A stretch of 64,000 bases of DNA from Trypanosoma brucei (taxonomy: Eukaryota): the NCBI GenBank assembly GCA_000002445.1, contig CM000207.1, positions 256,001 through 320,000 on the forward strand, given 5' to 3'. The first letter of the stretch is position 1, and every line of letters begins with the position of its first letter. Positions 2,420 to 63,439 of the stretch are shown here, piece after piece. The notes beneath the pieces were generated by a model. That model was not told the DNA's origin. It did not search any database and saw nothing but the letters and a program-made list of their open reading frames with translations. Made by a program: the position numbers and the translations under genes.

Positions 2420-2940
2420 TGATTCTTTAAATTTTTTGTTGGTGGCTCAAAAATTCCCCTTTTATCTATTGAGTTTTTTAAGGTTTTAATTTTTCTTTTT
2501 TTTTGGTATTTTTTATAATTTTCCATTTTTTTAAATGTAATGCAGCGGCTCTCTCTTGACGCGGACCTTAAAGCTTATTCGCCCTCCGCACTTGAAGCGG
2601 TGCTTAATTTGTTTTTTAAAAAACTCTGGTGCGTAGACGAAGGGGCTGCACGCTGTTTTTTTTAAAGCTGGCGCGCTGCAATTTCGTTGCGCAGAACGAT
2701 TTCCTTTTAAAGGGAAAGTTAAGGAAATAGGGAAACATTCGTCACCAGCAGATTATGAAAATAAGCAATTAACCCTCAGCGGCACAATCTGTGGCTGGCA
2801 CCAGACGTCTAAAGCCGTTCAACTGTCAGAGGTGTGTTTTTAACGGTGTCAGAGACAAATGTGAGTTGAAAAAGGAGTTGACACAAGAACTAGAAAAGGC
2901 AAGCCAAGAATCGTGAGGGAAAGACTGGCAAACTAATTTC
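2420..2940. repeat. Degenerate telomere-associated / T-rich block downstream of VSG1 (copy 1 of a recurring module), containing the 'aatgcagcggctc...gacgcggacc' motif
   Basis: T-rich sequence with 'gtaatgcagcggctctctcttgacgcggacc' at ~2535, plus 'gctgcacgctg...tggcgcgctgcaatttcgttgcgcagaacgatttccttttaaag', homologous to boxes at 44510-44600 and 51190-51290. Confidence 0.5.
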
Positions 2941-3136
2941 TCTAGCCACCAGGATCAGACATCTGGTGAAAAACAAGAATGAAGGACTGCCAGCTTGTGG
3001 CCCTTGTAAATGTGGTTGGATAACTTTCACAGACAAAGAAGGCAAACTTCCCAAACCTGAGTGACTCTCTTTCAGTATCCTTGTCAATAAAAAATTGGCT
3101 CTAAGTATGGCTGCTGATTTTATGGATTTGGTATGA
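2940..3136 (+). pseudogene. VSG: Orphan VSG C-terminal-domain fragment with its own 3'UTR
   Basis: Translation ...CGPCKCGWITFTDKEGKLPKPE*LSFSILVNKKLALSMAADFMDLV* resembles the CTD ends at 45100-45227 and 54720-54852. 16-mer variant tttgatatgttttaacac at ~3231-3248. Confidence 0.65.
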
Positions 3137-3507: not shown

Positions 3508-3577
<70 letters not shown>

Positions 3578-3655
3578 GTATTGATAGTGATAATGATATA
3601 AAAGTATTGTCAGTGTATATAAACTAATATTATAATAAAAGTGGTAGCGACTAAG
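3462..3655 (+). repeat. 70-bp repeat block (about 2.5 units) with expanded (TAA)n tract, upstream of VSG2
   Basis: gtgttatgagtgtgtatatacgaatattataatgagagcaataataat followed by ~90 bp of pure TAA triplets (3508-3598) and a second partial unit (...gtgtatataaactaatattataataaaagtggtagcg). Confidence 0.85.
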
Positions 3656-12859: not shown

Positions 12860-13640
12860 AAATACAACCGAGAAATTATTATTGTTGGCTTCCTGCACGT
12901 GTAAATTTTTTTATAGCTAAAAATTTTCTCTTTTTTTTTTGTTTTTTTGTCTAGCAAACAAAAAAGCTAAAAAGGGGGTTAGAGAGGGTTCTCCGGCTCA
13001 GGATCAGTCTTATCGTTATGGTTATTTGGGTTAGGGTTAATTTTTCTCTAACTGTTTTTTTATTTAATTGTTTTTTCTTCTTTTTTCTTTTTTTTCACAA
13101 TACGTTGCTAATTTTTTAATTTTTTTAAAGTGATGCAGCGGCCGTTTTTTTATGCGGACCCTAACCCTCCTCCCCCCCCAGCCGAGCAGCGGACTTTTTT
13201 TTTCCACCCCCGCCGCCAACTGATTTTGTTTTTTTTCCATCCGCGGCGTCGCCACGACTTGTTTTTTTTTTACGCTTAAATTTTTTTAAAGACTTTTTGA
13301 TTTATTATTTTCACCGCTTAATTTTTTTTAAGCGGCAGCAGGCACTTGATTTCCTCCCTCCTCCCATTCCTTTTAGCTTTTGAAAATTTTTAAATTTTAT
13401 TTTCATTTGTAGCTTTGTTAAATATATTTGTAACGGCGTCCCGGTTTTTTTAAAAAGCAGTTGGCCACCTTATTCGGAAACCAGCCATCTTCAATTAATT
13501 TTTTTCCTATATTCGCTATCAGTAAGCCAGCGATGCCATCAACGCCCATTTTGCCGTTTTGAATTTCAGCCCTACGACTAACGAAAGGGATCTCTTTAGA
13601 AGCTAACAGCAGAGGAACAGAATAGATGCAAAGCTGTCAC
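12860..13640. repeat. Telomere-derived, T-rich block downstream of VSG4 (copy 2 of the recurring module). Degenerate G-strand TTAGGG at ~12975-13040 and C-strand-like CCCTAACCCTCCTCCCCCC at ~13158-13188.
   Basis: gggttagagagggttctcc...ttatttgggttagggttaattttt then gtgatgcagcggccgtttttttatgcggaccctaaccctcctcccccccagccgagcagcgg; long T runs. Confidence 0.7.
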
Positions 13641-13931
13641 GAGAAAACACAAAGAAGGATGCGCAGCTGCCGGCTGCCACTATGATGACAACAAAAAAAA
13701 TGCAACCCTAAACAAGGAGTAGAAACCACAGCAGCAGGATCAGGAAAGACACCAAAATATGGAGCAGCTGCAGCCGGATGTGCAACGCATAAATATAAAG
13801 CCGCTTCTGCGGTTGACAAAACAGTCGGTAAAAAAAGTTGTGCATTTAGAAATAGTAAATATAGTGAAGACGACAAGGACATAAAAAAGTGTCGAAATAG
13901 TAGTTTTCTACTAGAAAAAAGATGGCCCTGA
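13640..13931 (+). pseudogene. VSG: Orphan VSG C-terminal-domain fragment
   Basis: Frame gives ...GSGKTPKYGAAAAGCATHKYKAASAVDKTVGKKSCAFRNSKYSEDDKDIKKCRNSSFLLEKRWP*. There is no N-terminal domain. 16-mer-like tctatattttaacatttc at ~13998. Confidence 0.65.
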
Positions 13932-35118: not shown

Positions 35119-38100
35119 TTTTTTTGGAATTTTCTTCGTGCCTTTGAGAGAGTTTCCCCCCACTGGCGCGGCCATCAGCTATCACCGTAGAGCCCTGAGA
35201 TGCTATCGGTCTGGCGACTGTGGCAGAGTCTCCCTTTTTTATTCATCCTAATACACTCTCTCTATAACGTTTTGTTGTAGCTCCGCAGTTGAACGGAATA
35301 CAGCAGATGGGGCGAGAAGCCCCCCACCCCGGACTCTCCAAAAGATGTCAATTAGCAATCCTTTTGTTTTGATTTTTGTTATTCGTTTATTATTCTCTCC
35401 CCCTTTTTATGTTTTTGTTGCTTGTTGACTGCATACCCCCTCTGTCTCTGAGGGTGTCTGGACTATTCCTGCATCCGGTGCTTTTCCTGCTAGCTCCACA
35501 CTCGGCAATAAGGGGGGAAGTTGCAGAAGGGAGAGTGGGTTGTATGACTGTTACCTTAGGTGAGGACTTCACCTGCGGCCGGCTCCGTTCAACCGCAATG
35601 AGAAACTGCGCCAGCCTTTTGGAGAAGCATATATCCTGCACACACTCACCTTCCACCGCAAACCTGACACGTAACTCCTTCAAACCGGGACAGCTCATCG
35701 AGTGCAGCGACGTTTCTTCACAGTCGCCGCGTTGGCTGGTAACAGCGCGCTCTACCTTCATACCGTGCATCTTCTTTTGATGTAGGGTGAGGCCAGTTTT
35801 GCTAGCACACTGCCTTCCGCATGTCGGGCACACCAACATGGATGCATTTGTATGCGGGGAATCAGTGGCACAAAATTTTTTGCTTTTGCTGCATTTAAGC
35901 TCGACACCCTCACCTTTGTGGAAAGCCTTACAGTGTCGGATGAGGGAGTCCCTGCAACTGAGCACTTTTTGGCACACACCACACTGCACCTCGCCTTTCC
36001 CCTGGGGACGTTAACGTTTCCCTCACGGGCACGCTTACGAGGGAATTGCACCACCACCACGGTACCGTCCTCCGTCACTATGCTCTTATGTTTGAATTTC
36101 TTGTCTAGTGACAGGGAAGAGCGTGTACCGAAACTCGCCTCACACAGGTCACATTGAAACGGCAGCTTCCGTGTATCCTGAGGGGCTGGCGCTGCTGGGG
36201 CGCTACCATCTCCTTGCACTGAGTCCTCGTTCTCTCGCTCCCTTTTCACGCGGCAACTACCGCTGCCTATGCCATGTATTGTTCTAAGGTGGTGTAATAG
36301 TCGGCCTGGCACTGCGAATTTGGAGGCACAGAGGGTACAATGAAGAACCTGCGGTCTCATCGGGACTCGTGTGTTCGATGGTAGAGGAACGATCACCACC
36401 ACTGGAGGGGGCTCCGGGGGGATATCCACTGCAGGTGTTGCATCGCCGTATTTGATCCTCCGGAGGGCATCAGCTCGCACAAAGCCATGTTTGTTTACCA
36501 TGCGCGTTACAGCACTCGAGCGGCATTGGTATATGGCATCACATTCCGTACATTTGGTCGGTTCGGAGGTTCTCTGAAGAGTGCGTGTCGCAACAGTTGG
36601 GACCGTTTGTATTGTTTGCCCTATCTCTGCATGTTGCGGGTTGCACCATCGGCACTGTGGGAGCGCACTCGGGTTGATCTTTCACAACATCCATCCATAG
36701 TGCCTTGAAGACCCAACCCGAAAGCGTGCCAGTGCCGTTTCTTCTTCCATCGTTAATTATTCCTTATGTTTTGTTGTAAAGTGGTTGCCCGTGATACCAA
36801 ACCTATGAGTGTTCTCATGGACTTCTTCCGACCTAAGCACTCGCTTCGCATAAGCAATGATGTCGGGGATCCATGTGTCTCGCAACTGTGGTAAATCAGC
36901 GGCCTTTTTGGCCATTTCATCACAAACCTCATTCCGTTTCACGCCACAATGGCCAAACACAAATTGCAGTCGGATACGTATCTTCCTTCTCTGAACTTGA
37001 AGCAGAAGCCTCCATAGTCGTCTCAGAATTGGGTCCGTTACGGCTAGGGGGCCTGTCTGCAGTGCTGTTAACATTGACAGCGAGTCAGAGAAGATGGACA
37101 ACCTGCTCTGTGTGCTTCTGTATGCCGGAAGCCATTTCAGCAGCCGTTGCAGTCCTATCTCTAATGCTACGCATTCCGCTCTGTAACTGCATGAGAGTTC
37201 CTCTGCTCCGGTCTTGGGTGCACAAATCAGCGTGTTGTTTCTATAGAGCAGGGCAGCTGCTCCGGACTTCTCACCGAGGGACACGGATCCATCAGTCCAC
37301 AATTCGTAGTGCTCTCGCCGCGGTGGCTCCTTCCCCCTCCGTGCAAAATGCCGTGCAATCCACTTTTCGGAAGCCTCCCTTTTGACATCATCAGGGTCAT
37401 CAGCGCATACGGGCTTTATCTGCGTGTGAAATAGCGGTCGGCAGCTGTGGCGGAGCGTCGATGTCTCTAGTGGGTGCTCGCGTGGCTCAATGTGGAGGTG
37501 GGGATAGGACCACATGATGCGGGATTGTAGGGCTCTGACCGTATGTTTACTGTGGTATACTTCCTCAGCACTGCGGCGCAAACATCCGCCTCGTGACTCA
37601 CACATCAGCATGAATTTCATGCTGCGCACAAGAGTGGCCGTCTTGAGTAGCAGGAGGTTTGCTTCCAGCACAGAGTTCTCTTTGCGCGTCCCATGCGGTA
37701 TGCCGGCTATGATGCGACTGGCTTTGTGTTGTGCTGATGCAAGGAGGTCGCGACTTCGTTCCGAAGCGTCCCAGTACCATACCTCAATACCATACATGGT
37801 GTGTGCCTGTACGAGTGCTAGATAAAAAGCTCTCAGTACTTGTTGTCTTGGCCCCCATGTAGAAGCTGAGATGGCTACTATCTGCAGTAGTCTGAAGTCC
37901 ATCTTGCGTCTCGTTTCGGTCGCATGTGTTGCCATCCCCTGCAGACACTGGAATGTTACTCCTAGAAGCTTCGGTGTCCTGTCAGCTCCTATTCTTTCGC
38001 CGTCCAGTTGTAATGTAAGGGGGTGGCGCTCTGTACACCCGAAGAGTGTGCACTTTGTTTTCGCTACGTTGACAGACATGAAGTACTCTTTTGACCACTG

Positions 38101-40373
38101 TAACACCACGTTTAGGCCGCATTACAGCGTGTGGTTGATGACATCCCTCTCTGTGTGCCTCGCAAGTAGCGTTAGGTCGTCTGCAAAGAATCCGTGCTGC
38201 AGTAACGGCACTTCTGCAAGGCGTTGGCTCAACGAGTTCATGACAATAATGAACATGATTGGGCCAAGGACAGTTCCTTGTGGCACTCCTCGCTCAAATG
38301 TTCTGCTTCTGGAAAGCTTCTCCTTGAATCTCACTCTGCCAGTTCGGTTACTCAGAAATGATACGCACCACTTCACAATGTGGGGTGATACCTTCATTCT
38401 GTGCATTTCCCTCGCAATTTTGTCGTGGTCTACTGTATAAAATGTCTTCTCGTAGTCAACGAATACAGCACCCGTACGATATTGGTGCGTGGGACGGCAG
38501 AGGGCAGCACGGACGTGCAGGAGTTGTTCGAGCGTTGAGCATCCGGGGCGAAAGCCTGATTGCTGCGGCGTCAGCTGGGACTCAACAGTGTCTCTAAGCC
38601 TCGCGGCAATTATGCGCTCCATGACTTTGCAGAGACAGCTCGTGAGCGTCACAGCTCTGTAAGAATCGAGGTCCTCCGCCTTTTTTCCGGCCTTCAGGAT
38701 GGGGATGATAACACCAGTCTTCCATGCAGGCGGCACGACTCCCGTTCGTAGGCTCTTATTGAATAGCTTCAGCAAAACATTCAGCGCTGTTCTACCGAGA
38801 TGTTGCAGTGCCTCGTTGTATAAGCAATCAGGTCCGGCTGCGGATCCACTCGGTAGCAGTTTGATCGATCTCCTTAGTTCAGCCATCGTGATGGGACTGA
38901 ACTCACTCGCTATCGTCTTTACTGGTGCTGGTGGGTGTGAGTCGGGGTGCCTTCTTGCGCGGGACGATTACAGCTTACTGAACTTCTCAGCTTGACGGCA
39001 GTCCGTGATGGTCGCGTTATCGACAAGTACAGCCGGTGTGGTTAGTGGTCGTGGCGCATATACTTTCTTGACAATGTGCCAACTGCAGCGGTCTGACACC
39101 GCAAGTCTGGAGCATAGCGTGCTCCATCTCTTCTTTGTGGTACGGTCCAGGATCTGCTTACGCGTGGCTACCAACTTTTCCCTTCGGTGGGAGGGTCCGC
39201 ATCCAGCGATCTCTTCATCGAGTTTCGCGAGCTCAGGTGTCCAATGTGGTGGCGTTGCTCTGCAGCCACGGGGGACGGAGACCTTCGTCGCAACGCGGAT
39301 TTCGGAGCTCAATTTCTGTTCCAGGGTGTTGACATTCTTCTCTCTACCAATTTTCCTACAGAGGTCGTCAACCTTGAGACGGAAATTCCTCCAGTCAGCT
39401 TTCAGCCATACGTACATGGGCTTTCGAGGCCGCGGGCAACTCAGTGCATCTGTGCCGTCTCCAACGATAACGTCAAAAAATATGTGATGGTGATCGCTAT
39501 CGGGAGAATACAGCGATGTCCACGTGTACACTGTGCAATTCCTTGACAGTGTCACATCAGGGGTGGACTCCCCGTGGTGGCGCGCGTACCTGGTGCACTC
39601 ACCAGTGTTGCAGACCAGAAACTGGTTGTCAATGCACCACTGTGTGAGGGTTTCACCCTTGGTATTTGGTGGGCTCGCGCGATCCCATGCCAACGCGTGT
39701 GCGTTAGCGTCTGCACCGATGAGCTGGGCACCGTCAGTCATCAGAAGCGTATCTAGGTCAGTTGCCGTGAAGGTGTGTTTTGGTGGGATGTATGCCGACG
39801 TGACAGTCAGCGCCGTTTCACTTGCAAGGTGAATTGTTGCATGCACTTGTTCAATGCGACTAACAACGGTCATACCGCTCTCGACTGGTAGGTCCTCCCT
39901 CACTAGTATTGATACACCACCTCCTTTGCAGTTACGAGCTATTCCGTGATGTTGGTAGCCAGCAACGCTAAAGCAAACCGCCTCTCCAGGCGTCATCCTT
40001 GTCTCGCTCAACGGACAAAAGGCGATCCGCTCATCAACAAGGGTTTTGTGGAGTGCTAATCTCTTTCCTTGAGATAGCCCGGCGCAGTTCCACTGTATCC
40101 CGCGCAACGACGGGCCGGGATTCTCTTCCACATCACCGGACAGCAACATCTTAGTGCGGATGATACTGCTGATGACACACTGGCACGTGCCCAGGGACCG
40201 ACAAATGAAGAACGGTGTCCCAGCAAGACGCTGCTGATCCCTGTGCTGTATGATGCCGTAGCCGGAGCACAGCAGTGTTCCCCATGAAAGGAACGCTTCT
40301 GACTCTTGGCTTACCCCGATGATACGGGGTACTGGACCCTGGCACCACGTTGAGGTGGCCGGCATCGCCAGGG
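35119..40373 (-). mobile_element. ingi: ingi non-LTR (LINE-like) retrotransposon, full-length-sized (5255 bp) but degenerate, with its ORF broken into at least five pieces
   Basis: Minus-strand ORF remnants: 38968-40413 (RIME/ingi 5' region ...EAFLSWGTLLCSGYGIIQHRDQQRLAGTPFFICRSLGTCQCV..., 2A-like DVEENPGP, APE-type endonuclease WNCAGL...); 38122-38886 (RT: FRPGCST...FVDYEKTFYTVDHD...FFADDLTL); 36757-38109 (RT thumb and RNase H: LWTDGSVSLGEKSGAAALL); 35758-36501 and 35390-35989 (C2H2 zinc fingers CTLCASKFAVPGRLLHHLRTIHG, CDLCEASF...KFKHK, CGVCQKVL...HCKAFH). Poly-T run at 35119-35125. Flanked by a perfect 12-bp TSD. Confidence 0.9.
40112..40135 (-). other. 2A-like 'ribosome-skipping' peptide motif (SGDVEENPGP) near the ingi N-terminus
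   Basis: The reverse complement of cgggccgggattctcttccacatcaccgga encodes S-G-D-V-E-E-N-P-G-P within ORF 38968-40413(-). Confidence 0.8.
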
Positions 40374-40385
40374 TGTTATTTTGAT
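40374..40385. repeat. 12-bp target-site duplication (5' side of the minus-strand ingi)
   Basis: tgttattttgat, identical to 35107-35118. Confidence 0.85.
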
Positions 40386-40535
40386 GAAAACAAAACGCCA
40401 AAATGTTTTCCAAAAGAGAGCAAAGAAGACAAGAAAAATGGGCATAATGGGAAAACGTAAACTAAAAACACCACAGGAAACACTTCTTTTGTCATTCATA
40501 TGACCCCTCTTTTGCTTGCGCTTTTGATTCTATAA
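40386..40535 (+). pseudogene. VSG: VSG10 3' part (CTD end and GPI signal) resuming after the ingi and TSD
   Basis: Continues in frame from CYFD|ENKTPKCFPKESKEDKKNGHNGKT* with the GPI tail NTTGNTSFVIHMTPLLLALLIL* in the +1 frame. 16-mer-like tttgtgatattttaaagttg at ~40593. Confidence 0.75.
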
Positions 40536-43949: not shown

Positions 43950-44620
43950 GAAAGTTTCCCGGAAATAGTGTAGTTTTGTAAGTTTGTGATTCTGCAAAGT
44001 TTTTATGATAGCTAAAAAAATTTCTCTATTTTTCACATTTTTTAGAATTTTTTCAGGGTTATGATTTTTTAGAATTTATAGGGTTAGGTTTTTTCAAGGG
44101 CTTTTTAATTTTCGACTTTGTTTAATTTTGTGTCTTTTGGAGCATTTTTTATTTTTTCCTTCGTTTTTTCGGTTTTTTATTTTTGTCCAACTTTTTTAAA
44201 TCTTTTTTTTAATTTTAGGAGAAACAAAACCGATCAACAAGCTGAAAAGAGACTAAACAGAGTTGAAGTTAGGGTTAGTGTTAGGGTTATTGGATTGAGG
44301 TTGTTAATTTTTTGATTGTTTTTTATTTCACTTCTTTTTATTTTTTATTTTTTCTAATTCTTCAATTTTTAAAATTTTATTGATGCAGCGGCTCTTTTTC
44401 TTGATGCGGGATATGACCCTTATTTACCCAGCAAGCATCTTCATTCTTATATTTTTCACCTGCGCCATCTACCTAATTTGTTACTTTTTTGCTTTTGTGC
44501 ATTTTAGCTCGGCATGTAGCGCTGCACGCGGCTTTTTTGTTAACAGTGGCGCGTGGCAGTTTCGCTTCGAGAAACGATTTGCTTTTAAAGAGACGATAAC
44601 AAAAAAATCTTAATATTTGG
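43950..44620. repeat. Telomere-derived T-rich block (copy 3 of the module): degenerate TTAGGG at ~44080-44100 and 44265-44310, GATGCAGCGGC motif at ~44383, and a conserved ~110-bp box at 44510-44620
   Basis: gggttaggttttttc; agttagggttagtgttagggttattggattgagg; attgatgcagcggctctttttcttgatgcgggatatgaccc; box gctgcacgcggcttttttgttaacagtggcgcgtggcagtttcgcttcgagaaacgatttgcttttaaagagacgataacaaaaaaatcttaatatttggaaatggcaaaatatgg. Confidence 0.7.
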
Positions 44621-45227
44621 AAATGGCAAAATATGGAGTTCGGCAGCTAAAGCCAGTCGACGTAGCAGCCTGTACCGGTCGTTGCGCGGCACAGCAACAT
44701 AGCCAAAGTAAGCGGATGAGGCGAGCAGTTAACTGCAGTGTCATCAGGCCACTGCGTGCACATCACCATGCCCCAACAGATCCGGCGGCGACAGTCAAAG
44801 ATCTTAATGCATGGCCCCAAAATCACTAAGTGCATAAATCTACCGCAAAAGCAAAGCAACAAGCCAACAGTAGAGGGACAGAAAAAATGCAAACCACAAA
44901 ACGCAACAGCTGAAGAATACACAAGCGAGGACTGCGAATATGATGCCGCCAAAAACACAGGAATGTAAACCTAAACAAGGAACAGAAACCCCAGCAACAG
45001 GAACAGGAGAGACAAGTTCTGGGGTAGATTGCAGCAAAAACCAAACCCAGAAAACCTGTGAAGCGAAAAACAAGGATGTAAAACCGGGTCAGAAAGCAGT
45101 ATGTGGATGGATAGATTATGTTGACGGCACAGGCAAGCTTCCCAAACCTGAGTGTCGCTCTTTCAGTTTCCTCATCAATAAGAAATTTTCTCTGACGGCA
45201 GATGCTTTCGTGGCTTTGTTAGAATGA
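44620..45227 (+). pseudogene. VSG: Orphan VSG C-terminal-domain fragment with a conserved leader (paralogue of 51300-51904)
   Basis: Frames give ...EGQKKCKPQNATAEEYTSEDCEYDAAKNTGM* and ...ECKPKQGTETPATGTGETSSGVDCSKNQTQKTCEAKNKDVKPGQKAVCGWIDYVDGTGKLPKPECRSFSFLINKKFSLTADAFVALLE*. The 5' ~250 bp is homologous to 51300-51560. 16-mer tgtgacatattttaacacc at ~45318. Confidence 0.7.
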
Positions 45228-45519: not shown

Positions 45520-45698
45520 TAGTTAAGAACATTATAATGATAATAATATAAGTGATATTGATAGCGGAGTGTTGTGAGTGTGTATATACTAATATTATAA
45601 TAAGAGCAGTAATAATAATAATAATGATACTAATAATAGAAGAGTGTTGTGAGTGTGTATATACGAATATTATAATAAGAGCAGTAAAAATAATAATA

Positions 45699-45729
<31 letters not shown>

Positions 45730-45875
45730 TAATAATAGGAGAGTGTTGTGAGTGTGTGTATATGCGAATATTATAATAAGAGCAGTAAAAATAATAATAA
45801 TAATGATAATAATAATAATAGAAGAGTGTTGTGAGTGTGTGTATATGCGAATATTATAATGAGAGTGCTGCGGTC
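45520..45875 (+). repeat. Large 70-bp repeat array (about 5 units)
   Basis: Five successive ...gagtgttgtgagtgtgtatatac(t/g)aatattataataagagcagtaa(t/a)aataataataat(gat)... units are readable at 45545-45870. Confidence 0.9.
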
Positions 45876-47575: not shown

Positions 47576-47944
47576 AGACGATTGTAAAAAATCTTACTTG
47601 GAATAATGAATTGCTAATGTAAAGTCAAAGGTTGAAGACGTAAAAACCACTACAAACATTTTTTGATAACTTTGAAAAAGTGAGCGTAAGATATAACTTT
47701 CGTTGTAGAAATAGACTGTAAAAGGTGCTCTGTTCGTGCCTGAAAAATAGACAGAAAGCAACAAGAAAGTGTGAGTACAGTAATTGGAAACAGAGAATTC
47801 CTGATTTTCGTTATTAACAAAACTGAGTTATTTAAACGCACACAACCTCCAACGGGAGTCAGTCGTGTCTTATTCCAATTTCACTGCGCTTCAAGAGAAA
47901 GGCACCCGAGCTGCAACTTTAAAAGAAATATTCAAAACTGCGCA

Positions 47945-49510
47945 ATGCCACAGATCTCAAGGTGTTCAAGGCACCAATTAACCGTAGCAGCATTGTCGCT
48001 AGTCTTCTCGAATTTAGCAAGAGGCGCGACCACAAACGGCGTAAACGCACCAGCGTACGCAACTTTGTGTGACATTTACAATCTTAAGGATGCTAAACCA
48101 CCAACAGTATGGGCAAAGCAGTTTGATGACGCCCAAAGTTTAATAACGGCCATTTACAATCTGAACATTAGTACCGCAAGTGATACGTGGCTAACAAACA
48201 AAGACGGCGAGTTCGCAAATATCTCCGACAGCGCCGAGAGAGACGGGCAGTTGAAGGAGTGGATTAAGCAAGTCGAAGCGACAACAGCCGCAGACACGAC
48301 CACGGGTAAACCAGGGCCGTACAGCAAAGTACCCAACAACCCCTTCAAACCGATCGCAAACAAGCAAATTGACGCTTTGTACCGGCAAGCGCAAACGAAA
48401 AAAGGAGCCTTCGAGCAAGCTAAGAAAGAAGTAACAGAAGCACACACCAAAGCGAACCGTAAGATTCTGGACGCCATCTACGGCACCGGTAAATCGGCTT
48501 TCGACACTACAGCTTTCACAACCACAAAACAGCAAATGTGTGGCAACGGCAACAACGGCCACGCGAATGTCGGCAAAAACATACTAAACGACATGATCTG
48601 CCTTTGCACGGCGGAAGGCAGCCAATCGGACAAGGCATGCGGAGAGAAAGACATGGGCGAAGTGCAAAGCGACGCGACAGGGGCCGAAGCCGCAGCAGCA
48701 AACCTCGAGGGGGCGTGTACCAAAAAAGAAACAAAACAAGAGCTCTCAGAGGCCCTAATACAAGCGAAGCTAGCAGCGTTTTTCGCACACGTCGGTGCAA
48801 TACCAGACAGCCAAACTGACGCCTCGGTACGATTCGTACTAGGCCAGGCCCAGACAGGCGGCTGTGTAGGATCAAGCAACAAGCAATGCGTAAACTACAA
48901 AGCGCAATTAACTACAGGGGGCGGCGGAATTCCATGGGTCAACCAACTGGAGGAAGCGGCCTCGATTTTACGCAGGGCATCAATAGCATACGCCGAAGCA
49001 GCCCACATCGATGCCGAACTAAAAAGTCTGAAGGCCCAGGCCGCCAGCTTACGCAATGCAGCAGTCATAGGCATTGCTCTGCCTGATATGGCCTCAACAG
49101 AACGCCGCCTCGATAGCCCCAAAGAACTTAGTTAAAGTGCAGAACAAGCTTGTAACAAACTAAATAGTGAACAAAAGTGCAATGCTGATCCGAAATGCAG
49201 TTACGAAACAGAAAGCGATGGCACCAAAAAGTGCAAATATAATGCGACAAAAGCGAAAGAAAAAGGAGTTTCTGTAACACAAGCTCAAACAGGAGGAGGA
49301 ACAACTGCACCCTCAGATAGGTGCACAAAACACAAAGACAAAACGAGCTGTGAAAAGGAAAATGAGGGCCAAAAACCGGCCGAAATTCCGAAAGATAAAA
49401 AATCTGTTTGTGGTTGGATTGAGGAGAAATGCAAAGATTCTTCTATTCTAGCAACTAAAAAATTTGCCCTCAGCATGGTTTCTGCTGCATTTGTGGCCTT
49501 GCTTTTTTAA
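47945..49510 (+). pseudogene. VSG: VSG pseudogene (VSG12) with a single in-frame TAA at 49133-49135
   Basis: ORF 47771-49135 (signal peptide MPQISRCSRHQLTVAALSLVFSNLARGATTNG from 47945). The same frame continues after ...PKELS* as SAEQACNKLNSEQKCNADPKCSYETESDGTKKCKYNATKAKEKGVSV...CGWIEEKCKDSSILATKKFALSMVSAAFVALLF*. 16-mer cttatatattttaacacc at ~49565. Confidence 0.8.
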
Positions 49511-49714
49511 GTTCCCCCTCTCAATTTACTAAAAAATTCTTGCTAAAAAATTTTGCTACTTGAAAACTTCTTATATATTTTAACACCTTTAAATTCCACC
49601 GAAAAAATTGAGCTGTGTTTGTAAGTTGTAAAGTTTGTGATTCTGTAATTTTCTAATTTTTCTAGCAACTAAAATTTTTTTTTCTTTCCTTTTCCTGTCT
49701 TTTTAATTTTTGTA

Positions 49715-49855
49715 GGTAGGTAGGAGGGGGGGGTAGTTAGGTTAGTTAGGGGGGTTAGGTAGGATTAGGATTAGGATTAGGGTTAGGGTTATGGTTACTC
49801 GGTTAGGGTTAGGGTTAGGGTTAGGGTTAGGATTAGGGTTACTCGGTTAGGGTTA
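49715..49855 (+). repeat. Interstitial telomeric hexamer tract (TTAGGG)n, about 140 bp, G-strand on +, with degenerate units (taggta, ttagga, ttactcgg)
   Basis: ggtaggtaggagggggggtagttaggttagttaggggggttaggtaggattaggattaggattagggttagggttatggttactcggttagggttagggttagggttagggttaggattagggttactcggttagggtt. Confidence 0.9.
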
Positions 49856-51290
49856 ATTTTTCTTTTTTTTTTCTAATCCATTTTTTTTATAAAGTGATGC
49901 AGCGGCTCCTCCTTTTTTATGTGCACCGCCGCAGCCGTTACGATTTATTATGTTTTCATATACCAGGTTGCTTGTTTTTTAATTTTTCAACTTTTTATTA
50001 GTGATGCAGCGACTCCTTTTTTTTTCACTGACGTTTAATTTATTTTTTTTCATATTAGTGATGCAGCGGCTGTTTTATTATGTGGACCCTAACCCTCCTC
50101 CCCCCCACCCCAGACGCCCCCGCGTACGCACCTTTTTTTTTCGTGTTTTTTTGTCTTCTTGATTTTTCGAATTTTTTTTCAATGTTTTATTCGAACTTAT
50201 AATTTTTTTGATTCACTCACAATTTTTAATTATTTTTTTTTAGCCGTGCAGCGGCTGTTTTATTATGCGGACCCTAACCCTCCTCCCCCCCCGCACACCC
50301 GCGCACCCGCACAGTTTTTTTAATTTTAATTTTTTTTACGTTTTGGAATGCGCGAATTTTTTTAGTGCGTTTTTCACAAAGCCTTTTTTACCCTTTTTTT
50401 TGTATTACGTGATTTTATTTTTTTAATTTTCCGATTTTTTGATTTTAGTTTTTTTACGCCACACCCGCGACTTTTTTTGTCTTTTTGGTTTTTCGAATTT
50501 TTTTTCGTTCATTCTTTTGGCTTTTATAATTTTTTTGTTTTTATTTTTTGATTCTATTTTGCATTTGAATTTTTAAGTTTTTTTATTTTTAATTTTTTAA
50601 TTTATTGTTTTTTGCTTTTTAAGTTTTTGACATTTTTTGTTTTTGATTCCTTTTTTTGTCATCGACCGACACAAATTTTCTGTCACCGCCCCTTTTTGTT
50701 CGGCACGGCAGATGCGGTGTTTCGGGTTCAGGTGTTTCGGGTTAGGGGTTAGGGTTAGGGTTACTCGGTTAGGGTTACTTTTTTTCCTTTTCACTTTTTT
50801 TAATTTTTTTTTATGATGCAGCGATTTTTTTCGCAGCCCTGCCGGCAATCCAATTTATTATTTTTATTGTTTCTATTTTACAACACTTTGCTAATTTAAT
50901 TTTTAACTTTTTCTTTAGCGATGCGGCGGCTATTTTATTATGCGGACCCTAACCCTCTCCCCCGCGCGCACCTCCGTTTTTTTAATTTTTTTTGCCGCAT
51001 TTTTCAGCCCCTGTTTTCGAGTTTCTTTCAAATTTTTTTGTTTTTCAACCCAGCGATGCAGCGGCTGTTTTTTCTTCATAAACCCTGACACTTATGCGCG
51101 CTACAGCCATCCTCGCTTAAATTTTTTAAATATTCAGCACCTACCCGTGCAGTGGTGTTTGATACTTTTTTGCTTTTTTGAATTTCAGCTCTGCGTTTTG
51201 CGCTGCACGCAGCTTTTCTTTTTACGCTGATGCGTGTCAGTTTCGCTGCAGGAAACGATTTTCCTTTCAAGAGGCGCTAACAAAAAACTC
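49856..51290. repeat. T-rich subtelomere-like satellite block. At least 7 irregular units carry (G/A)TGATGCAGCGGCTG-TTTTATTATG(C/T)GGACCCTAACCCTCCTCCCCCC, so C-strand telomere-like motifs lie inverted relative to the flanking G-strand tracts. A second G-strand tract is at 50730-50782.
   Basis: gatgcagcgg(c/a) motifs at ~49893, 49992, 50058, 50243 (variant gccgtgcagcggctg), 50815, 50920 (variant gcgatgcggcggct) and 51053; ggaccctaaccct(c)ctcccccc at ~50086, 50270 and 50943; gggttaggggttagggttagggttactcggttagggtt at 50730-50782; long poly-T runs throughout. Confidence 0.8.
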
Positions 51291-51904
51291 TTAATATTTA
51301 GAAGTGGCAGAATATGGCGCTCGGCAGCTAAAACCAGCCGACGTAGCAGCTTGGACCGGTCGTGGCGCGGCACAGCACCCTAGCCAAAGCAGCCAGAGCT
51401 CTCAAACAATCAGCTGAAGCAGCAGCAGGGCAATGCAGGTGCATCACCATGCCCCAACAGATTAGGCGGCAGATGTAAAACATCTTAATGCTGGGTTCCA
51501 TAAGCACCACTTCCGAAAATACACTGCAAAAACAAAGCAGTAAGCAAACAGTAGAGCAAAAAAATAAATGCAAACTGAAAAACACAACTGCAGGAGCATG
51601 ACCAGAAGCTGACTGCGACAATGATAACACCACAAAGGAATGCAAACCTAAACCAGGATCAGAAAACGCAGCAGCAGGAACAGGAGATGGAGCAAAAAGT
51701 AAGTCTCAACAGTATAAGGACACAGATAGTTGCAAGAATGCACCAGAAGAGAAAAATCTAGCTAAAAATGCAGTCTGTGGTCGGATTTATTTTATTGATG
51801 GTCAAGGAAACGTTGAAGCTTAATGCTGTGATAAAAGTTTTTTTGCAAAAACGAAATTTTCTCTGATCGCCGCTGCTTATATGAGTTTGTTAGCAATTAA
51901 ATGA
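51290..51904 (+). pseudogene. VSG: Orphan VSG C-terminal-domain fragment with a conserved leader (paralogue of 44620-45227)
   Basis: aatatttagaagtggcagaatatggcgctcggcagctaaaaccagccgacgtagcagc... is homologous to 44595-44680. Translation ...ECKPKPGSENAAAGTGDGAKSKSQQYKDTDSCKNAPEEKNLAKNAVCGRIYFIDGQGNVEA*CCDKSFFAKTKFSLIAAAYMSLLAIK*. 16-mer aaatttgatatattttaacac at ~52003. Confidence 0.7.
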
Positions 51905-52149
51905 TTTTATTACTCTAGTTATTTAATGATTATCGCTCAATTACACGAAAAACAAGAAATTTATAAATTTTTTTATTTTGGGAGAATTTACTAAAAATTC
52001 GAAAATTTGATATATTTTAACACTTTTTTGACAAAATGTACTAATTTTTGAAATTATCAAAAGCTGGTATGATAGTAGGTAATGGGCGTAGTGCCATGCA
52101 CTGATAGTGTGTAAAAATTAAGTACTATTATAATTTGTTTTATTTATTA

Positions 52150-52340
52150 TATGCATATTAGTTATACTTGTATCATTAATGGTAATGATGATAGAAGAGT
52201 TGTGTAAGTGTGTATATACTAATACTATAATAACAGCAGTAATAATAATAATAATAATAATATTAATATTAATAATAATAATAATAAAGGAATTTGTGGT
52301 GAGTGTGGACATACTAATATTATTATACGAGTTGTGATGA
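52150..52340 (+). repeat. 70-bp repeat block (about 2.5 units) with an ATT/ATA-rich expansion
   Basis: gtatcattaatggtaatgatgatagaagagttgtgtaagtgtgtatatactaatactataataacagcagtaataataataataataatattaatattaataataataataataaaggaatttgtggtgagtgtggacatactaatattattatacgag. Confidence 0.85.
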
Positions 52341-53223: not shown

Positions 53224-54852
53224 GTGCGAATGATGTTCGGCAAAGCAACTGGAGAAAAGATTGAGCTGGCGAGCACATCGGCGGCGATAACCCTCCTTAT
53301 TTGCATGTTGGGTACCCCTAGCGAGGTGGATGCAACTGCAGGGCACGCTATCAAGAGACAGCATTGGGTTGCTATTTTTGAACTAGGGCAGGATGCAGAA
53401 AAGATACCAGCTTTAGCACTGACAAACCTGAGGAGCGCTGCAAGCGTGGCCGAAGATGCATTCACGAAGCTACTAAGAGCGCTAATTTACGCGCAAGCTA
53501 ACCTCACTAGAAGAACCCTACCAAAGGAAAAGGCAGCATGGTTTTTTTTGGGAGAAGAGGTCGCCGCTGGTCTAGCTTACTTCAAGGGCGGCAAAGCAGC
53601 AGCTGACATAACAGCCGCCCGTAACGCCGGTAGGCTGCAGGGCGCCATCACAGAATTCATTGAGCTCCACGCAGAGGGCTCAGACGGAACTAACGGCTGT
53701 CTCAGCGCAGATGACGACGGGGGCAACCCGATCAGCGGCAAGGCAACTTTCTCAGGCGCAACAACGGCATGCAAAGCAAACTGGGATGACGTAAAAGCAG
53801 CATCAACAAGGCCAACAGTTATCGCCGCCAACGGACTCGTAGGAAAACTGCAAAACGGAGTCGACCACGACAATCTAGTAAACGGAGCGAAACAGTGCGA
53901 TATAAACTCAGCGAAAACGACCTTCAAGCTGTCTGACGGGGCAAGCGACGGAACTAACGTGGGCACGCACATACCGAAAATGGCGGCAGGCATAATAACA
54001 GTGGGCACCACGGGACTCGAGATACCAAGCATGGCAAGCGTGGGACCGACGACTGGGCACCACGACTTCTTGAAATCAATAGTACAAGCAGCAAAGTGCG
54101 ACCAACACAGACTGCAAAAAGCAGCAGTGGACACCCTGGCAGAGGCGCAGAAGGAACCGAGGTTCAAAAAGGCAACAAAAATACACCTCCAAAACAAGAA
54201 ATCCGACGACCCCGATGATGAAGACTCCAGAGAGCGTGCGATAAAGACGGCATACGGCGACGACGACGGCATGCGGAAGGTGCTTTACGCCCACCCAGAT
54301 GGCCAACCAATCCCCAAAGCAGCACTAGGCACCGACGCCGACACAACATTAGGCCAAATCACGGACGTTGGTGAACTGATGCGTTTGTACTTTTACTATT
54401 CGGACTTGAACAAGCAGAAACTACTAGAAGCTGAGAAAAAACTTCAAGAAGTAGAAACCAAGACGGCTACAAAATCAGCAGAAGACAAAGAGAAAGAATG
54501 CAATACCAAAGGGAAAGACAAAAAGGAAGAGTGTGAAAAACTAGCGAAAGAGGGGTGCGTTTTTAACACAGAAGCCAAAAAGTGTGAGTTGAAAAAAGAA
54601 GTGAAACCTGAGCTAGAAAAAGCAAACCAGGAAACAGGAAAGACAACAACAGATAAGTGTGGCATAGAAAAACCTCCTGAGGACTGCGAAAAAGTGCAAG
54701 GTACGAAACCCAAAGGAAAAAATGTCGTTTGTGGTTGGATTGATTATATTGATGGAAAGGGCAAAGTTGAGCCAGCTTGCCGCTCTTCTAGTTTTCTAGT
54801 CGACAAGAAACTTGCTCTTATTTCTGCTGCATTTGTGAGCTTGCTTTTTTGA
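53224..54852 (+). CDS. VSG: Apparently intact VSG (VSG13), 542 aa
   Basis: Uninterrupted ORF; N-terminus MRMMFGKATGEKIELASTSAAITLLICMLGTPSEVDA; CTD ...ECNTKGKDKKEECEKLAKEGCVFNTEAKKCELKKE...KCGIEKPPEDCEKVQGTKPKGKNVVCGWIDYIDGKGKVEPACRSSSFLVDKKLALISAAFVSLLF*. 16-mer aaatttgatatattttaacac at ~54937. Confidence 0.8.
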   Translation: MRMMFGKATGEKIELASTSAAITLLICMLGTPSEVDATAGHAIKRQHWVAIFELGQDAEKIPALALTNLRSAASVAEDAFTKLLRALIYAQANLTRRTLPKEKAAWFFLGEEVAAGLAYFKGGKAAADITAARNAGRLQGAITEFIELHAEGSDGTNGCLSADDDGGNPISGKATFSGATTACKANWDDVKAASTRPTVIAANGLVGKLQNGVDHDNLVNGAKQCDINSAKTTFKLSDGASDGTNVGTHIPKMAAGIITVGTTGLEIPSMASVGPTTGHHDFLKSIVQAAKCDQHRLQKAAVDTLAEAQKEPRFKKATKIHLQNKKSDDPDDEDSRERAIKTAYGDDDGMRKVLYAHPDGQPIPKAALGTDADTTLGQITDVGELMRLYFYYSDLNKQKLLEAEKKLQEVETKTATKSAEDKEKECNTKGKDKKEECEKLAKEGCVFNTEAKKCELKKEVKPELEKANQETGKTTTDKCGIEKPPEDCEKVQGTKPKGKNVVCGWIDYIDGKGKVEPACRSSSFLVDKKLALISAAFVSLLF

Positions 54853-61858: not shown

Positions 61859-63439
61859 TTATGCTAGGAGCAAAAATGCCATGAACAGAGGAATACTCAT
61901 CAAAGCAGAAATGCCAACTGCACCGTCACAAACTCCATCCTCCCATGTGCAGTCTTCTTTACAGTCTTCCTGCTGTATTGCTTTGCAATTTCCTTCTTGT
62001 CGTGCCATCATCCACTGAAGTGCTCTGGGCCATTTCCGCATTTGAGTTTCGTTCTGTTTCTTTGTGTCTTTCCTTTCGTCTGATTCGCATCTACCTTTTT
62101 CCTCGTTGCCTTCCCATGTGCATTCGCCACTGCAGTCCTGTTTCCCCTTACCACTGCAGCCCGTTTTGGTGATTTCAGTTTCGTCTGATTGTGCTTGCTT
62201 TGCCTCTTCTGTTGGTCTTTGATCTTCCAGATAAATTAGAGCCTTCTGTGCGTTTTTGTTTCTAACCGCATCAAGGAGTGTTTCAGTTACGAATCCTGAG
62301 CCAATGTGGTACGTCACGTTCTTAGTCCACAGAACTTTTACGAAGTCTCTGGTGAAGTTTTGCTTATCCCCCCCGTAAAGTTTTTGAAGTTGCGCTTCGA
62401 CGCTGCTTCCGGCCGAGGATTTACCTCTTGTTTCGTGAAAGAAGCTTTTGAACGCGAGTTGGACTTCGGTCGTGTTTGCTAACGTGACAGGCGTTAGACT
62501 GGATATGGTTATTATCTGAGGATCGGGTTCTTTTATGTATTTGCATAACTTGTTTATCAGTAAGTCGTTATCTTTTTCTGATTTCGTCGATTCATTTTGT
62601 ATCACAGCGCAATTTGTGCTCGAGTCGCTACCCTCGAATATCCTAATCGGCTCTACAGTGATGAGGCTGTCTTTTTCAGTCGTCGATGCCTCGAATTTAA
62701 CATAATGGTCACCTTTCAGCAGATGTCCACACCTCTCAACTAATGCTTCTGCGCTTTCCGGTCCCTTCGTTTTTTTAATCTCAACCAGATGCGTTATTCC
62801 CAGTGGTCTTAGTTTGCTGCTATTTAGCAGTTTGATATGCGTTGCTGTCTTCAAGTTAACGGAAATTCCTTCTGGTTGGCTGTTATCATTGGTTCGGTGT
62901 GCACAACTTCCGTCGCCGCGTAATATCGGTGTTTCATCGCCAGGGCATTCTCCTATGGATACGCTGTAGCCCTGTATTTTGCTTACTCCAACTATTGTCT
63001 TCCCCCGAATATTAATCGCCAGCAACGTGCGCGTTAGTGCCGCTCTCCTGTGCAGAAACTTTGCGGTTGCTACCGCTGCCTTGTACTTCCCATTGTGGAC
63101 CCGCCTTGCTGTCGCCGCTGCGGTGGACATGTACGCGGCAAGGGCATACGTCGCGGCCCGTTTCTCTGTTTGGTTTGTAACTGCGGCAAGAAGATCCCAT
63201 GCCTCTGCATAAATTTGCATGTCGGATATTTCGCGCTCCTGCCTTTCTGCCGCCGCTACGATGCGATTTGCGAGGTACTCCGTATACTTAGCCTCTGTGC
63301 AGAGATTTGTCACCTTGTCAGAAGATGGCTCTGTTACTGCTTGCGCCTGGCAACACCTCGACAATAACATGAGTAGCGCGGGCACACCTGCTGCAACAGC
63401 TGTGTGCGATATTACTTTGGTAGCGGTCTGATTTTGCAT
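61859..63439 (-). CDS. VSG: Apparently intact VSG on the minus strand (VSG14), 526 aa
   Basis: Uninterrupted ORF MQNQTATKVISHTAVAAGVPALLMLLSRCCQAQAVTE...; two Cys-rich CTD subdomains (GCSGKGKQDCSGECTWEGNEEKGRCES; GNCKAIQQEDCKEDCTWEDGVCDG); hydrophobic GPI tail AVGISALMSIPLFMAFLLLA*. On the minus strand there is a T-rich 3' region and a 16-mer-like tgaaaatattttatacaa at ~61700-61725 (plus-strand coordinates). Confidence 0.8.
   Translation of the reverse strand: MQNQTATKVISHTAVAAGVPALLMLLSRCCQAQAVTEPSSDKVTNLCTEAKYTEYLANRIVAAAERQEREISDMQIYAEAWDLLAAVTNQTEKRAATYALAAYMSTAAATARRVHNGKYKAAVATAKFLHRRAALTRTLLAINIRGKTIVGVSKIQGYSVSIGECPGDETPILRGDGSCAHRTNDNSQPEGISVNLKTATHIKLLNSSKLRPLGITHLVEIKKTKGPESAEALVERCGHLLKGDHYVKFEASTTEKDSLITVEPIRIFEGSDSSTNCAVIQNESTKSEKDNDLLINKLCKYIKEPDPQIITISSLTPVTLANTTEVQLAFKSFFHETRGKSSAGSSVEAQLQKLYGGDKQNFTRDFVKVLWTKNVTYHIGSGFVTETLLDAVRNKNAQKALIYLEDQRPTEEAKQAQSDETEITKTGCSGKGKQDCSGECTWEGNEEKGRCESDERKDTKKQNETQMRKWPRALQWMMARQEGNCKAIQQEDCKEDCTWEDGVCDGAVGISALMSIPLFMAFLLLA

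What the first reader, a model, noticed from the sequence alone, without database searches (positions are those of the whole stretch)
49880..51075. Irregular satellite built on a ~45-nt core (GTGATGCAGCGGCTGTTTTATTATGCGGACCCTAACCCTCCTCCCCCC) embedded in poly-T DNA
At least seven copies of the core occur at variable spacing (~70-570 bp) across 49880-51075. Single copies occur at 2535, 13132 and 44383, always in the same post-VSG context. The core couples a GC-rich palindrome-like segment (GCAGCGGCTG) with a telomere-complementary segment and long T runs. I cannot place it in a named repeat family from memory. It could be a subtelomere-specific satellite, a protein-binding boundary element, or a replication or recombination signal that marks ex-telomeric junctions.
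Basis: seen in the sequence. Interest (0 to 1): 0.55.

Follow-up and report, generated by a model that had tools for sequence, protein, structure and literature searches.

The report
Telomere-like repeat module behind VSG genes
This is a real, one-directional repeat that follows about a third of the surface-antigen (VSG) genes in this stretch of Trypanosoma brucei DNA; it looks like a stranded and locally multiplied copy of the DNA that normally lies between a chromosome-end VSG gene and its telomere, so it is a variant of something already known, apart from one unexplained 10-base conserved island.

Summary
The window is a T. brucei TREU927 subtelomeric VSG array. A profile of the core finds ten copies, all on the VSG-sense strand: seven in 49876-51110 and single copies at 2516, 13109 and 44355. 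Only four carry the full ~45-nt core (box A GATGCAGCGGC plus box B GGACCCTAACCCTC).

The core belongs to a larger conserved module found behind four VSG genes: 3'UTR 16-mer, degenerate TTAGGG tract, T-rich DNA, core, spacer, orphan VSG C-terminal fragment with its own 16-mer, then a 70-bp repeat.

The "satellite" is a local amplification of this module. It holds two higher-order units, each opening with a TTAGGG-like tract, and three ~175-nt sub-units, one of them decayed. A shared GGGTTA|ATTTTT junction shows the modules are paralogues, not independent healed telomeres.

TTAGGG-like repeats 3' of telomeric VSGs are already reported, so this is most likely an internalised telomere-adjacent flank spread by cassette duplication. 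No function is shown.

Two points stand out. ATGCAGCGGC is the only 10-mer shared by all four loci. All five canonical G-quadruplex motifs in the 64 kb lie in these modules.

No external T. brucei DNA was reachable, so genome-wide distribution is untested. Interest is modest.

The parts
49571..49586 (+). VSG 3'UTR 16-mer (TTATATATTTTAACAC) of the upstream B-type VSG pseudogene (ORF 47771-49135)
49719..49858 (+). TTAGGG-like tract I: a G-run followed by degenerate hexamers, with a 44-nt higher-order period containing the TTACTCGG variant. Canonical G4 motif at 49806-49826.
49876..49933 (+). Core copy 1, box A only (GTGATGCAGCGGCTCC...)
49980..50027 (+). Core copy 2, box A only (GCAGCGAC variant)
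50037..50113 (+). Core copy 3, full (box A + TTTTATTATG + box B GGACCCTAACCCTC + C-run). G4 motif on the - strand at 50093-50121. Start of ~175-nt sub-unit 1.
50221..50296 (+). Core copy 4, full. G4 motif on the - strand at 50278-50308. Sub-unit 2.
50385..50545 (+). Decayed sub-unit 3. Box A is deleted and box B is unrecognisable, but the T-rich spacer is homologous to the one after copy 3 (50146-50213 = 50472-50540, 81%).
50546..50735 (+). T-rich low-complexity spacer with degenerate 8-40-nt tandem repeats
50736..50778 (+). TTAGGG-like tract II (includes the TGTTTC and TTACTCGG variants). G4 motif at 50739-50760. With the next ~45 nt (T-rich stretch and start of core copy 5) it is 80% identical over 96 aligned columns: 50736-50823 matches 49815-49904, the end of tract I through the start of core copy 1.
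50792..50853 (+). Core copy 5, box A only (GCAGCGAT variant)
50897..50973 (+). Core copy 6, full (GATGCGGCGGC variant of box A)
51030..51110 (+). Core copy 7. Box A is intact and box B decayed (AAACCCTGACAC). It is the positional equivalent of the single copies at 2516 and 44355 and continues into the conserved spacer.
51158..51634 (+). Conserved non-coding spacer (76% identical to 44477-45010)
51635..51934 (+). Orphan VSG C-terminal-domain fragment
52008..52023 (+). 16-mer belonging to the orphan C-terminal fragment
52177..52290 (+). 70-bp repeat plus (TAA)n that opens the next VSG cassette (VSG 53224-54852)
13016..13184 (+). Single module: TTAGGG-like tract (13016-13040), 90 nt of T-rich DNA, and a full core (13109-13184; - strand G4 motif at 13159-13179). 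An orphan CTD fragment follows at 13734-13925.
44268..44438 (+). Single module: TTAGGG-like tract (44268-44292), T-rich DNA, and a core with decayed box B (44355-44438). An orphan CTD fragment follows at 44916-45221.
2486..2592 (+). Single module: tract remnant (AAGGTTTTAATTTTTCT) and a core with decayed box B (2516-2592). An orphan CTD fragment follows at 2827-3133.

Best explanation
The core is one conserved block of a ~1-2.5-kb composite module that trails a subset of array VSG genes in T. brucei. The module reads: VSG 3'UTR 16-mer, short degenerate (TTAGGG)n tract with the G-strand in VSG sense, T-rich DNA, core (box A GATGCAGCGGC, T-run, box B CCCTAACCCT plus a C-run), spacer, orphan VSG C-terminal fragment with its own 3'UTR, then a 70-bp repeat.

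The module is most likely an internalised copy of the telomere-adjacent flank that normally separates a telomeric VSG from its telomere. It would have been stranded once and then spread through the array by cassette duplication, while the VSG to its left was exchanged by gene conversion.

The 'satellite' at 49880-51075 is this module after local unequal exchange or slippage in T-rich DNA. The exchange produced two higher-order units (tract + box-A-only copy + full core). Inside the first unit there are three tandem ~165-185-nt sub-units, of which the third has lost its core.

Shown: the anatomy, the paralogy, the strand polarity and the amplification. Inferred: the telomeric origin, and any present-day role.

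The most plausible role is passive. The TTAGGG-like tract could supply telomere-type homology 3' of the gene for exchange with expression sites. Opposed G4-prone tracts in T-rich DNA could make the spot prone to breakage and unequal recombination.
For: - Organism and context: VSG 53224-54852 is 100% identical to a TREU927 VSG. Pfam finds VSG domains, and the window carries 70-bp repeats and thirteen 16-mers, all on the + strand.
- Ten copies exist, all on the + strand, with no others.
- The four loci align from the tract through the orphan CTD to the 70-bp repeat.
- Every orphan CTD fragment on the + strand follows a module, and every module precedes one: 4 of 4 in both directions.
- The distal tract junction GGGTTA|ATTTTT(CT) is shared.
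- Sequence to the right of the junction is more alike between the four loci (z 5.8-11.9) than sequence to its left (z 0.8-5.0).
- The VSGs on the left are of different N-terminal types: B at 781 and 47771, A at 42685. The module therefore outlives its VSG.
- Internal duplications: 49815-49904 = 50736-50823 (80%), 50017-50140 = 50203-50321 (77%), 50146-50213 = 50472-50540 (81%).
- The full copy at 13130 is as similar to the local full copies (73-79%) as they are to one another (70-80%), so the amplification is old.
- Decay is visible. Box B is degenerate at 2537, 44380 and 51053, and one sub-unit has lost both boxes.
[quoted passage not shown] GGGTTA-like sequences lie between the VSG and the telomere in expression sites (PMC11229358). 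The VSG-to-telomere distance is 200-1590 nt (PMC2567434). TTA-loop G4 variants, including TGTTTC, are associated with chromosomal VSG genes genome-wide (PMC12267983). [quoted passage not shown]
Against: - No telomeric VSG flank (expression site or minichromosome) could be fetched, so homology of box A or box B to genuine telomere-adjacent DNA is not shown.
- Primers from the Lister 427 BES1 pre-telomere region do not match the window. This is uninformative but not supportive.
- A neutral relic does not explain why ATGCAGCGGC is the only 10-mer shared by all four loci and the longest invariant run in their alignment.
- How the orphan C-terminal fragment became attached to the distal side of the module is unexplained.
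Confidence: 0.6

Rival explanations
1. Box A, alone or with the G4-prone box B, is a constrained cis-element. It could be a binding site or processing signal that marks the distal edge of telomere-type VSG cassettes. Candidate roles are a boundary, an origin, a recombination site or a trans-splice acceptor. On this view it is maintained by selection, not merely inherited.
For: - ATGCAGCGGC is the longest invariant run (10 nt) in the 1385-column four-locus alignment. No unrestricted column shuffle out of 5000 reaches that length, and block-restricted shuffles give P = 0.0002-0.01.
- It is the only 10-mer common to all four loci without any alignment.
- In 20-nt windows its identity (0.82) lies between the 70-bp repeat (0.92) and the 3'UTR 16-mer (0.80), against a mean of 0.43.
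- In 7 of 10 copies an AG lies 2-3 nt upstream, after a poly-T tract, which resembles a trypanosome splice acceptor.
- All five canonical G4 motifs in the 64 kb fall in the modules, on opposite strands.
Against: - Only four independent loci are available.
- GC-rich islands in T-rich DNA mutate and align differently from their surroundings.
- Local copies tolerate changes (GCAGCGAC, GCAGCGAT, GCGGCGGC, CGTGCAGC), and one sub-unit has lost the box entirely.
- There is no conserved hairpin, no Rfam family and no known T. brucei factor with this motif (the last point is from memory).
- The literal sequence is absent from the searchable literature on trypanosomes.
Confidence: 0.2
2. Relic of a head-to-head telomere fusion or fold-back. 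On this view, (TTAGGG)n on the + strand faces (CCCTAA) a few hundred nt downstream, and the T-rich DNA and box A form the centre.
For: - AGGGTTAGGGT and ACCCTAACCCT are perfectly complementary over 11 nt. The arms extend to 16-19 nt at 79-88%, including the G-run and C-run.
- Single-strand folds pair them.
Against: - Only 1.7 CCCTAA units are present.
- Fold z-scores are weak (-1.2 and -1.9).
- DNA distal to box B is not an inverted VSG flank. It stays T-rich on the same strand (36 T-runs, 0 A-runs), with no inverted 16-mer.
- A same-sense VSG C-terminal fragment follows.
Confidence: 0.07
3. Each TTAGGG tract marks an independent chromosome break healed by telomerase and later re-joined. These would be true, separate ex-telomeres, and the core would be filler or the capture site.
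For: The tracts differ in length (about 12 to 140 nt) and in distance from the 16-mer (about 110-320 nt).
Against: - The distal junction and the 35-90 nt leading to box A are shared between loci.
- Variant hexamers such as TTACTCGG are shared between tracts I and II.
- The same spacer and orphan CTD follow in every case.
Confidence: 0.05
4. Box B and its flanks derive from telomerase RNA. This would be analogous to vertebrate TERC-ITS insertions made at double-strand breaks.
For: The TbTR template is 5'-CCCUAACCCUA-3' (PMC8643685). Box B, CCCTAACCCTC, matches 10 of 11 positions.
Against: - Any telomere-complementary decamer would match equally well.
- Box B is in TR sense on the strand that also carries the TTAGGG product, and lies 35-300 nt from it. 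It does not abut the tract as in TERC-ITS.
- The TR template lies at nt 339-349 of a trans-spliced RNA, which does not fit the AG 25 nt upstream of box B.
- The sequence flanking the TbTR template was not available.
Confidence: 0.03

Closest known systems
Conserved organisation 3' of telomeric VSG genes, with 'TTAGGG-like' repeats between the VSG and the telomere. Source: Aline & Stuart 1989, as cited by Hall et al. 2013 (PMC3708902). GGGTTA-like sequences in expression sites are also reported by Kieft et al. 2024 (PMC11229358).
   Same: Both lie immediately 3' of a VSG, in the same sense, and carry degenerate TTAGGG hexamers. The distance from the gene (about 110-320 nt here) is comparable with the 200-1590 nt reported for expression sites.
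   Different: Here the module is chromosome-internal. It is followed by an orphan VSG C-terminal fragment, a 70-bp repeat and more VSGs, not by a telomere.
Interstitial telomeric sequences (ITS) of vertebrates and plants, especially subtelomeric ITS
   Same: Both are short, degenerate telomere-repeat tracts at non-terminal sites in recombination-prone subtelomeric DNA.
   Different: These tracts are one part of a larger conserved, polar module tied to one gene family. They are paralogous copies of one another, not independent insertions.
Species-specific telomere-junction or telomere-associated sequences of other trypanosomatids. Examples are the T. cruzi 189-bp telomeric junction (PMC3418195) and the Leishmania LCTAS blocks (the latter from memory).
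   Same: Both are conserved non-coding blocks lying next to hexamer repeats, specific to the lineage, and of unknown function.
   Different: No sequence comparison was possible. The element here lies on the distal side of a short internal tract, not on the centromere-proximal side of a true telomere.
70-bp repeats upstream of VSGs
   Same: Both are VSG-cassette-associated, polar, imperfect repeats with variable copy number. Both are conserved at a similar level in the four-locus alignment, and both are plausible recombination substrates.
   Different: The sequences are unrelated. The 70-bp repeat lies 5' of nearly every VSG and has an experimentally supported role in switching. This module lies 3' of only about a third of the VSGs here, and no role has been shown for it.

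Membership tests
Telomeric-VSG 3' flank with TTAGGG-like repeats (Aline & Stuart 1989 organisation) | Lies directly 3' of a VSG gene, on the VSG-sense strand | tested here: met
   All four modules start 110-320 nt after a VSG 3'UTR 16-mer, on the + strand.
Telomeric-VSG 3' flank with TTAGGG-like repeats (Aline & Stuart 1989 organisation) | Contains degenerate TTAGGG hexamers with the G-strand running away from the gene | tested here: met
   Tracts at 13016-13040, 44268-44292, 49719-49858 and 50736-50778, plus a remnant at 2486-2497.
Telomeric-VSG 3' flank with TTAGGG-like repeats (Aline & Stuart 1989 organisation) | Continues into the true telomere tract at the chromosome end | tested here: not met
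   Each module is followed by an orphan CTD fragment, a 70-bp repeat and further VSGs.
Telomeric-VSG 3' flank with TTAGGG-like repeats (Aline & Stuart 1989 organisation) | Sequence homology to published telomeric (BES or minichromosome) VSG 3' flanks | not testable with these tools
   The look-up of encoding contigs holds no T. brucei loci. The metagenome and prokaryote scans are irrelevant. The key papers are not held.
Interstitial telomeric sequence | Telomere-type hexamer repeats at a non-terminal chromosomal site | tested here: met
   TTAGGGTTAGGG with up to 1 mismatch occurs 13 times against 0.25 expected, all on the + strand and inside the array.
Interstitial telomeric sequence | Independent insertion at each site, with an empty orthologous site elsewhere | tested here: not met
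   The junction and distal flank are shared between loci, which indicates paralogy. Orthologous sites in other strains could not be examined.
Satellite DNA (regular head-to-tail tandem array) | Head-to-tail copies with a constant period | tested here: not met
   Tandem Repeats Finder reports no array with the core as its unit. Box A spacing is 57-570 nt. Only three degenerate ~165-185-nt sub-units are tandem.
70-bp repeat family | GT-rich core (GTGTTGTGAGTGTGT ... ATATTATAATAAGAG) with a (TAA)n run, 5' of a VSG | tested here: not met
   70-bp cores map elsewhere, for example 45569-45865 and 52177-52290. None lies in 49587-51110.
Head-to-head telomere fusion | Inverted telomere arrays flanked by mutually inverted subtelomeric sequence | tested here: not met
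   The arms are only 11-19 nt. Both flanks are T-rich on the same strand, with 36 T-runs and 0 A-runs.
Telomerase-RNA-derived ITS (TERC-ITS type) | The tract directly abuts sequence copied from telomerase RNA beyond the template | not testable with these tools
   Only the 11-nt TbTR template is available from text, with no supplement. The spacing and orientation do not fit.
Structured non-coding RNA | Match to a curated family, or a conserved secondary structure | tested here: not met
   Rfam finds no match at gathering score in the window and nothing credible at E<=10 in 49400-51400. RNAalifold predicts 0 pairs across 9 copies.

The most novel reading that the evidence does not exclude
The module is the 3' counterpart of the 70-bp repeat. 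On this reading it is a selected, polar boundary element. Its TTAGGG-like tract, conserved box A and opposed G4-prone tracts would let an array VSG be copied into a telomeric expression site with its own C-terminus and 3'UTR. Alternatively they could recruit a factor that sets break or replication behaviour there. Either way, VSGs that carry the module would have a different activation probability from those that do not, which bears on the VSG expression hierarchy.
Probability: 0.12. Interest if true: 0.65.

Novelty: new member of a known kind. Interest (0 to 1): 0.3.

Why it matters
How silent array VSGs are chosen and copied is still partly open, and the 3' limit of conversion is much less well defined than the 5' limit at the 70-bp repeats. 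About a third of the VSG cassettes in this window carry a telomere-like tract, a conserved 10-nt island and G4-prone DNA directly behind the gene, always followed by a spare C-terminal fragment. If that pattern holds genome-wide, it would split array VSGs into two flank classes. The classes could differ in recombination partners, fragility or activation order. That prediction is cheap to test with existing assemblies and switching datasets. If the module is only a relic, it still records that array cassettes descend from telomeric ones.

Tried and rejected
- **Fetching related T. brucei loci.** The look-up of encoding contigs had no record for the window VSG, for its 100%-identical TREU927 entry P0001, or for P0009.
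- **Public collection scans.** Scans of metagenome and prokaryote genome contigs for ATGYGGACCCTAACCCTC gave 10 loci. All are chance matches with no box A and no T-rich context.
- **Predicted proteins.** An alignment of the short ORFs that read through the core (MQRLFYYADPNPPPP...) was searched against 5.8 billion predicted proteins. Nothing was found at E<=10.
- **RNA families.** Rfam found nothing, either at gathering score on the whole window or at permissive E-value on 49400-51400.
- **Secondary structure.** The consensus structure of 9 copies has no pairs. Single-strand folds of tract plus core have weak z-scores.
- **Literal sequence in papers.** Searches for the core returned only unrelated papers.
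- **Topic searches.** They produced no description of the core and no array-specific account of the TTAGGG tracts: nothing, and only the telomeric-VSG, expression-site and G4-motif reports already cited.
- **Key papers not held.** Marcello & Barry 2007, Cross 2014, Aline & Stuart 1989 and Callejas 2006 could not be read.
- **BES1 primers.** Pre-telomere primers from Kieft 2024 do not match the window within 3 mismatches.
- **Coding potential.** There are only short poly-Phe/Pro ORFs, so a coding role was rejected.
- **Retroelement origin.** Rejected, because there is no similarity to the ingi copy in the window.

Full report
**Context.** The window is a Trypanosoma brucei subtelomeric VSG array.
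- Pfam finds A-type and B-type VSG domains in the long + strand ORFs.
- Classical 70-bp repeats with (TAA)n runs occur, for example at 45569-45865.
- Thirteen VSG 3'UTR 16-mers (TGATATATTTTAACAC, up to 2 mismatches) all lie on the + strand.
- A frameshifted ingi-type retroelement lies on the - strand at 35758-40413.
- The VSG at 53224-54852 is 100% identical to a T. b. brucei TREU927 protein on a 3.06-Mb contig.

**Observation.** The seed GATGCAGCGGM occurs five times exactly against 0.05 expected.
- With mismatches there are ten box A sites, all on the + strand: 2537, 13130, 44380, 49894, 50001, 50058, 50243, 50813, 50918 and 51053.
- An nhmmer profile built from them recovers exactly these ten (E 3e-21 to 7e-9) and nothing else on either strand.
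- The quoted 48-mer is a consensus. Only four copies (13130, 50058, 50243, 50918) carry the telomere-complementary half GGACCCTAACCCTC.
- The region is 49% T with 36 T-runs and no A-run. It has only short, low-complexity ORFs.

**Anatomy.** The core is one block of a larger module.
- About twelve VSG genes or pseudogenes lie on the + strand. Four of them (16-mers at 2364, 12840, 43932 and 49571) are followed by a module; the rest are not.
- The module has this order: a degenerate TTAGGG tract (G-strand in VSG sense), T-rich DNA, and the core. A spacer conserved between loci follows (51158-51687 is 76% identical to 44477-45010).
- It then ends with an orphan VSG C-terminal-domain fragment, a second 16-mer and a 70-bp repeat.
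- The remaining VSGs run from the 16-mer to a 70-bp repeat in about 230 bp.
- The association is strict in both directions. All four orphan C-terminal fragments on the + strand follow a module, and all four modules precede one.

**The 'satellite'.** The interval 49719-51110 holds two higher-order units. Each opens with a TTAGGG-like tract (49719-49858 and 50736-50778), followed about 35 nt later by a box-A-only copy and then by full cores.
- 49815-49904 is 80% identical to 50736-50823.
- The tracts share the odd TTACTCGG variant.
- Inside the first unit there are three tandem sub-units of about 165-185 nt, starting at 50037, 50221 and ~50385. The third has lost box A and box B but keeps the T-rich spacer (50146-50213 = 50472-50540, 81%).
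- The last copy (51053) is the positional equivalent of the single copies at 2537 and 44380 and runs into the conserved spacer.
- Tandem Repeats Finder sees no array of the core, so this is an old, degenerate local amplification and not a regular satellite.
- The full copy at 13130 is as similar to the local full copies (73-79%) as they are to each other (70-80%).

**Origin.**
- The distal junction of the tract, GGGTTA|ATTTTT(CT), and the stretch leading to box A are shared between loci.
- Sequence to the right of the junction is consistently more alike between the four loci (z 5.8-11.9) than sequence to the left (z 0.8-5.0).
- The VSGs on the left belong to different N-terminal classes.
- The modules are therefore paralogues of one structure, not independently healed telomeres. 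The gene in front of the module has been exchanged while the module stayed.
- A head-to-head telomere fusion is unlikely. The inverted arms are only 11-19 nt. The folds are weak. The DNA beyond box B stays T-rich on the same strand and leads into a same-sense VSG fragment.

**Known biology.**
- Hall et al. [quoted passage not shown]
- Kieft et al. 2024 note GGGTTA-like sequences between the VSG and the telomere in expression sites.
- Hertz-Fowler et al. 2008 give 200-1590 nt for that interval.
- A 2025 G4 survey reports TTA-loop motif variants, including TGTTTC, associated with chromosomal VSG genes. TGTTTC is present here at 50725-50745.
- The simplest reading is therefore that the module is a telomere-adjacent VSG flank that became internal and was propagated with array cassettes. 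This step is inference. I could not obtain any telomeric T. brucei sequence to test it.

**What is not explained by a plain relic.**
- ATGCAGCGGC is the only 10-mer shared by all four ~1-kb loci. It is also the longest invariant run in their 1385-column alignment. No unrestricted column shuffle out of 5000 reaches 10, and block-restricted shuffles give P = 0.0002-0.01.
- In 20-nt windows it ranks between the 70-bp repeat and the 3'UTR 16-mer.
- In 7 of 10 copies an AG follows a poly-T tract 2-3 nt upstream.
- All five canonical G4 motifs in the 64 kb lie in the modules. The two TTAGGG tracts carry them on the + strand, and the three best full cores carry them on the - strand.
- Against a strong constraint: local copies carry substitutions in box A, one sub-unit has lost it, and box B has decayed in three loci. 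There is no conserved hairpin, no Rfam match and no protein family from ORFs across the core.
- I put about 0.2 on a constrained cis-element and about 0.6 on a relic with at most passive effects, such as 3' homology or fragility.

**Verdict.** The element is a new, unnamed member of a known kind: telomere-associated repeats, or TTAGGG-like flanks of VSG genes. It is of modest interest. The testable parts are the two flank classes of array VSGs, the module-orphan CTD linkage, and the conserved box A.

Noticed in passing
window 2827-3133, 13734-13925, 44916-45221, 51635-51934 (+): Orphan VSG C-terminal-domain fragments, each with its own 3'UTR 16-mer and a following 70-bp repeat. Every one sits just downstream of a TTAGGG-like/box A module, and no module lacks one. 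How the fragment became linked to the module is unexplained.
   Followed up: partly
window 49806-49826, 50739-50760 (+); 13159-13179, 50093-50121, 50278-50308 (-): These are the only five canonical G-quadruplex motifs (G3+N1-7, four runs) in the whole 64 kb. All lie in the post-VSG modules. The G-rich strand switches from + at the TTAGGG tract to - at the core.
   Followed up: partly
window 35758-40413 (-): Degenerate ingi-type non-LTR retroelement with endonuclease, reverse transcriptase and RNase H domains split over at least four ORFs. It interrupts the array in the opposite orientation to the VSGs.
   Followed up: partly
window 15786-17246 (+): A 486-aa intact ORF with no Pfam VSG hit even at E<=1. 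It nevertheless ends in a typical VSG C-terminal domain and GPI signal, and has a degenerate 16-mer downstream. It is probably a divergent VSG that the Pfam models miss.
   Followed up: partly
window 61859-63439 (-): A 526-aa ORF on the opposite strand with a weak A-type VSG match (E 0.0015) and a C-terminal-domain tblastn hit. The array appears to change orientation near the right end of the window.
   Followed up: no
window 50385-50545 (+): A decapitated eighth repeat unit. The T-rich spacer is conserved (81% to 50146-50213), but box A is deleted and box B is unrecognisable. Individual copies can therefore lose the core.
   Followed up: yes
window 3508-3615, 45610-45865, 52240-52287 (+): The 70-bp repeat blocks differ widely in size: about four units with long (TAA)n runs at 45569-45865, against one degenerate unit elsewhere. 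The largest block directly follows a module/orphan-CTD unit.
   Followed up: no
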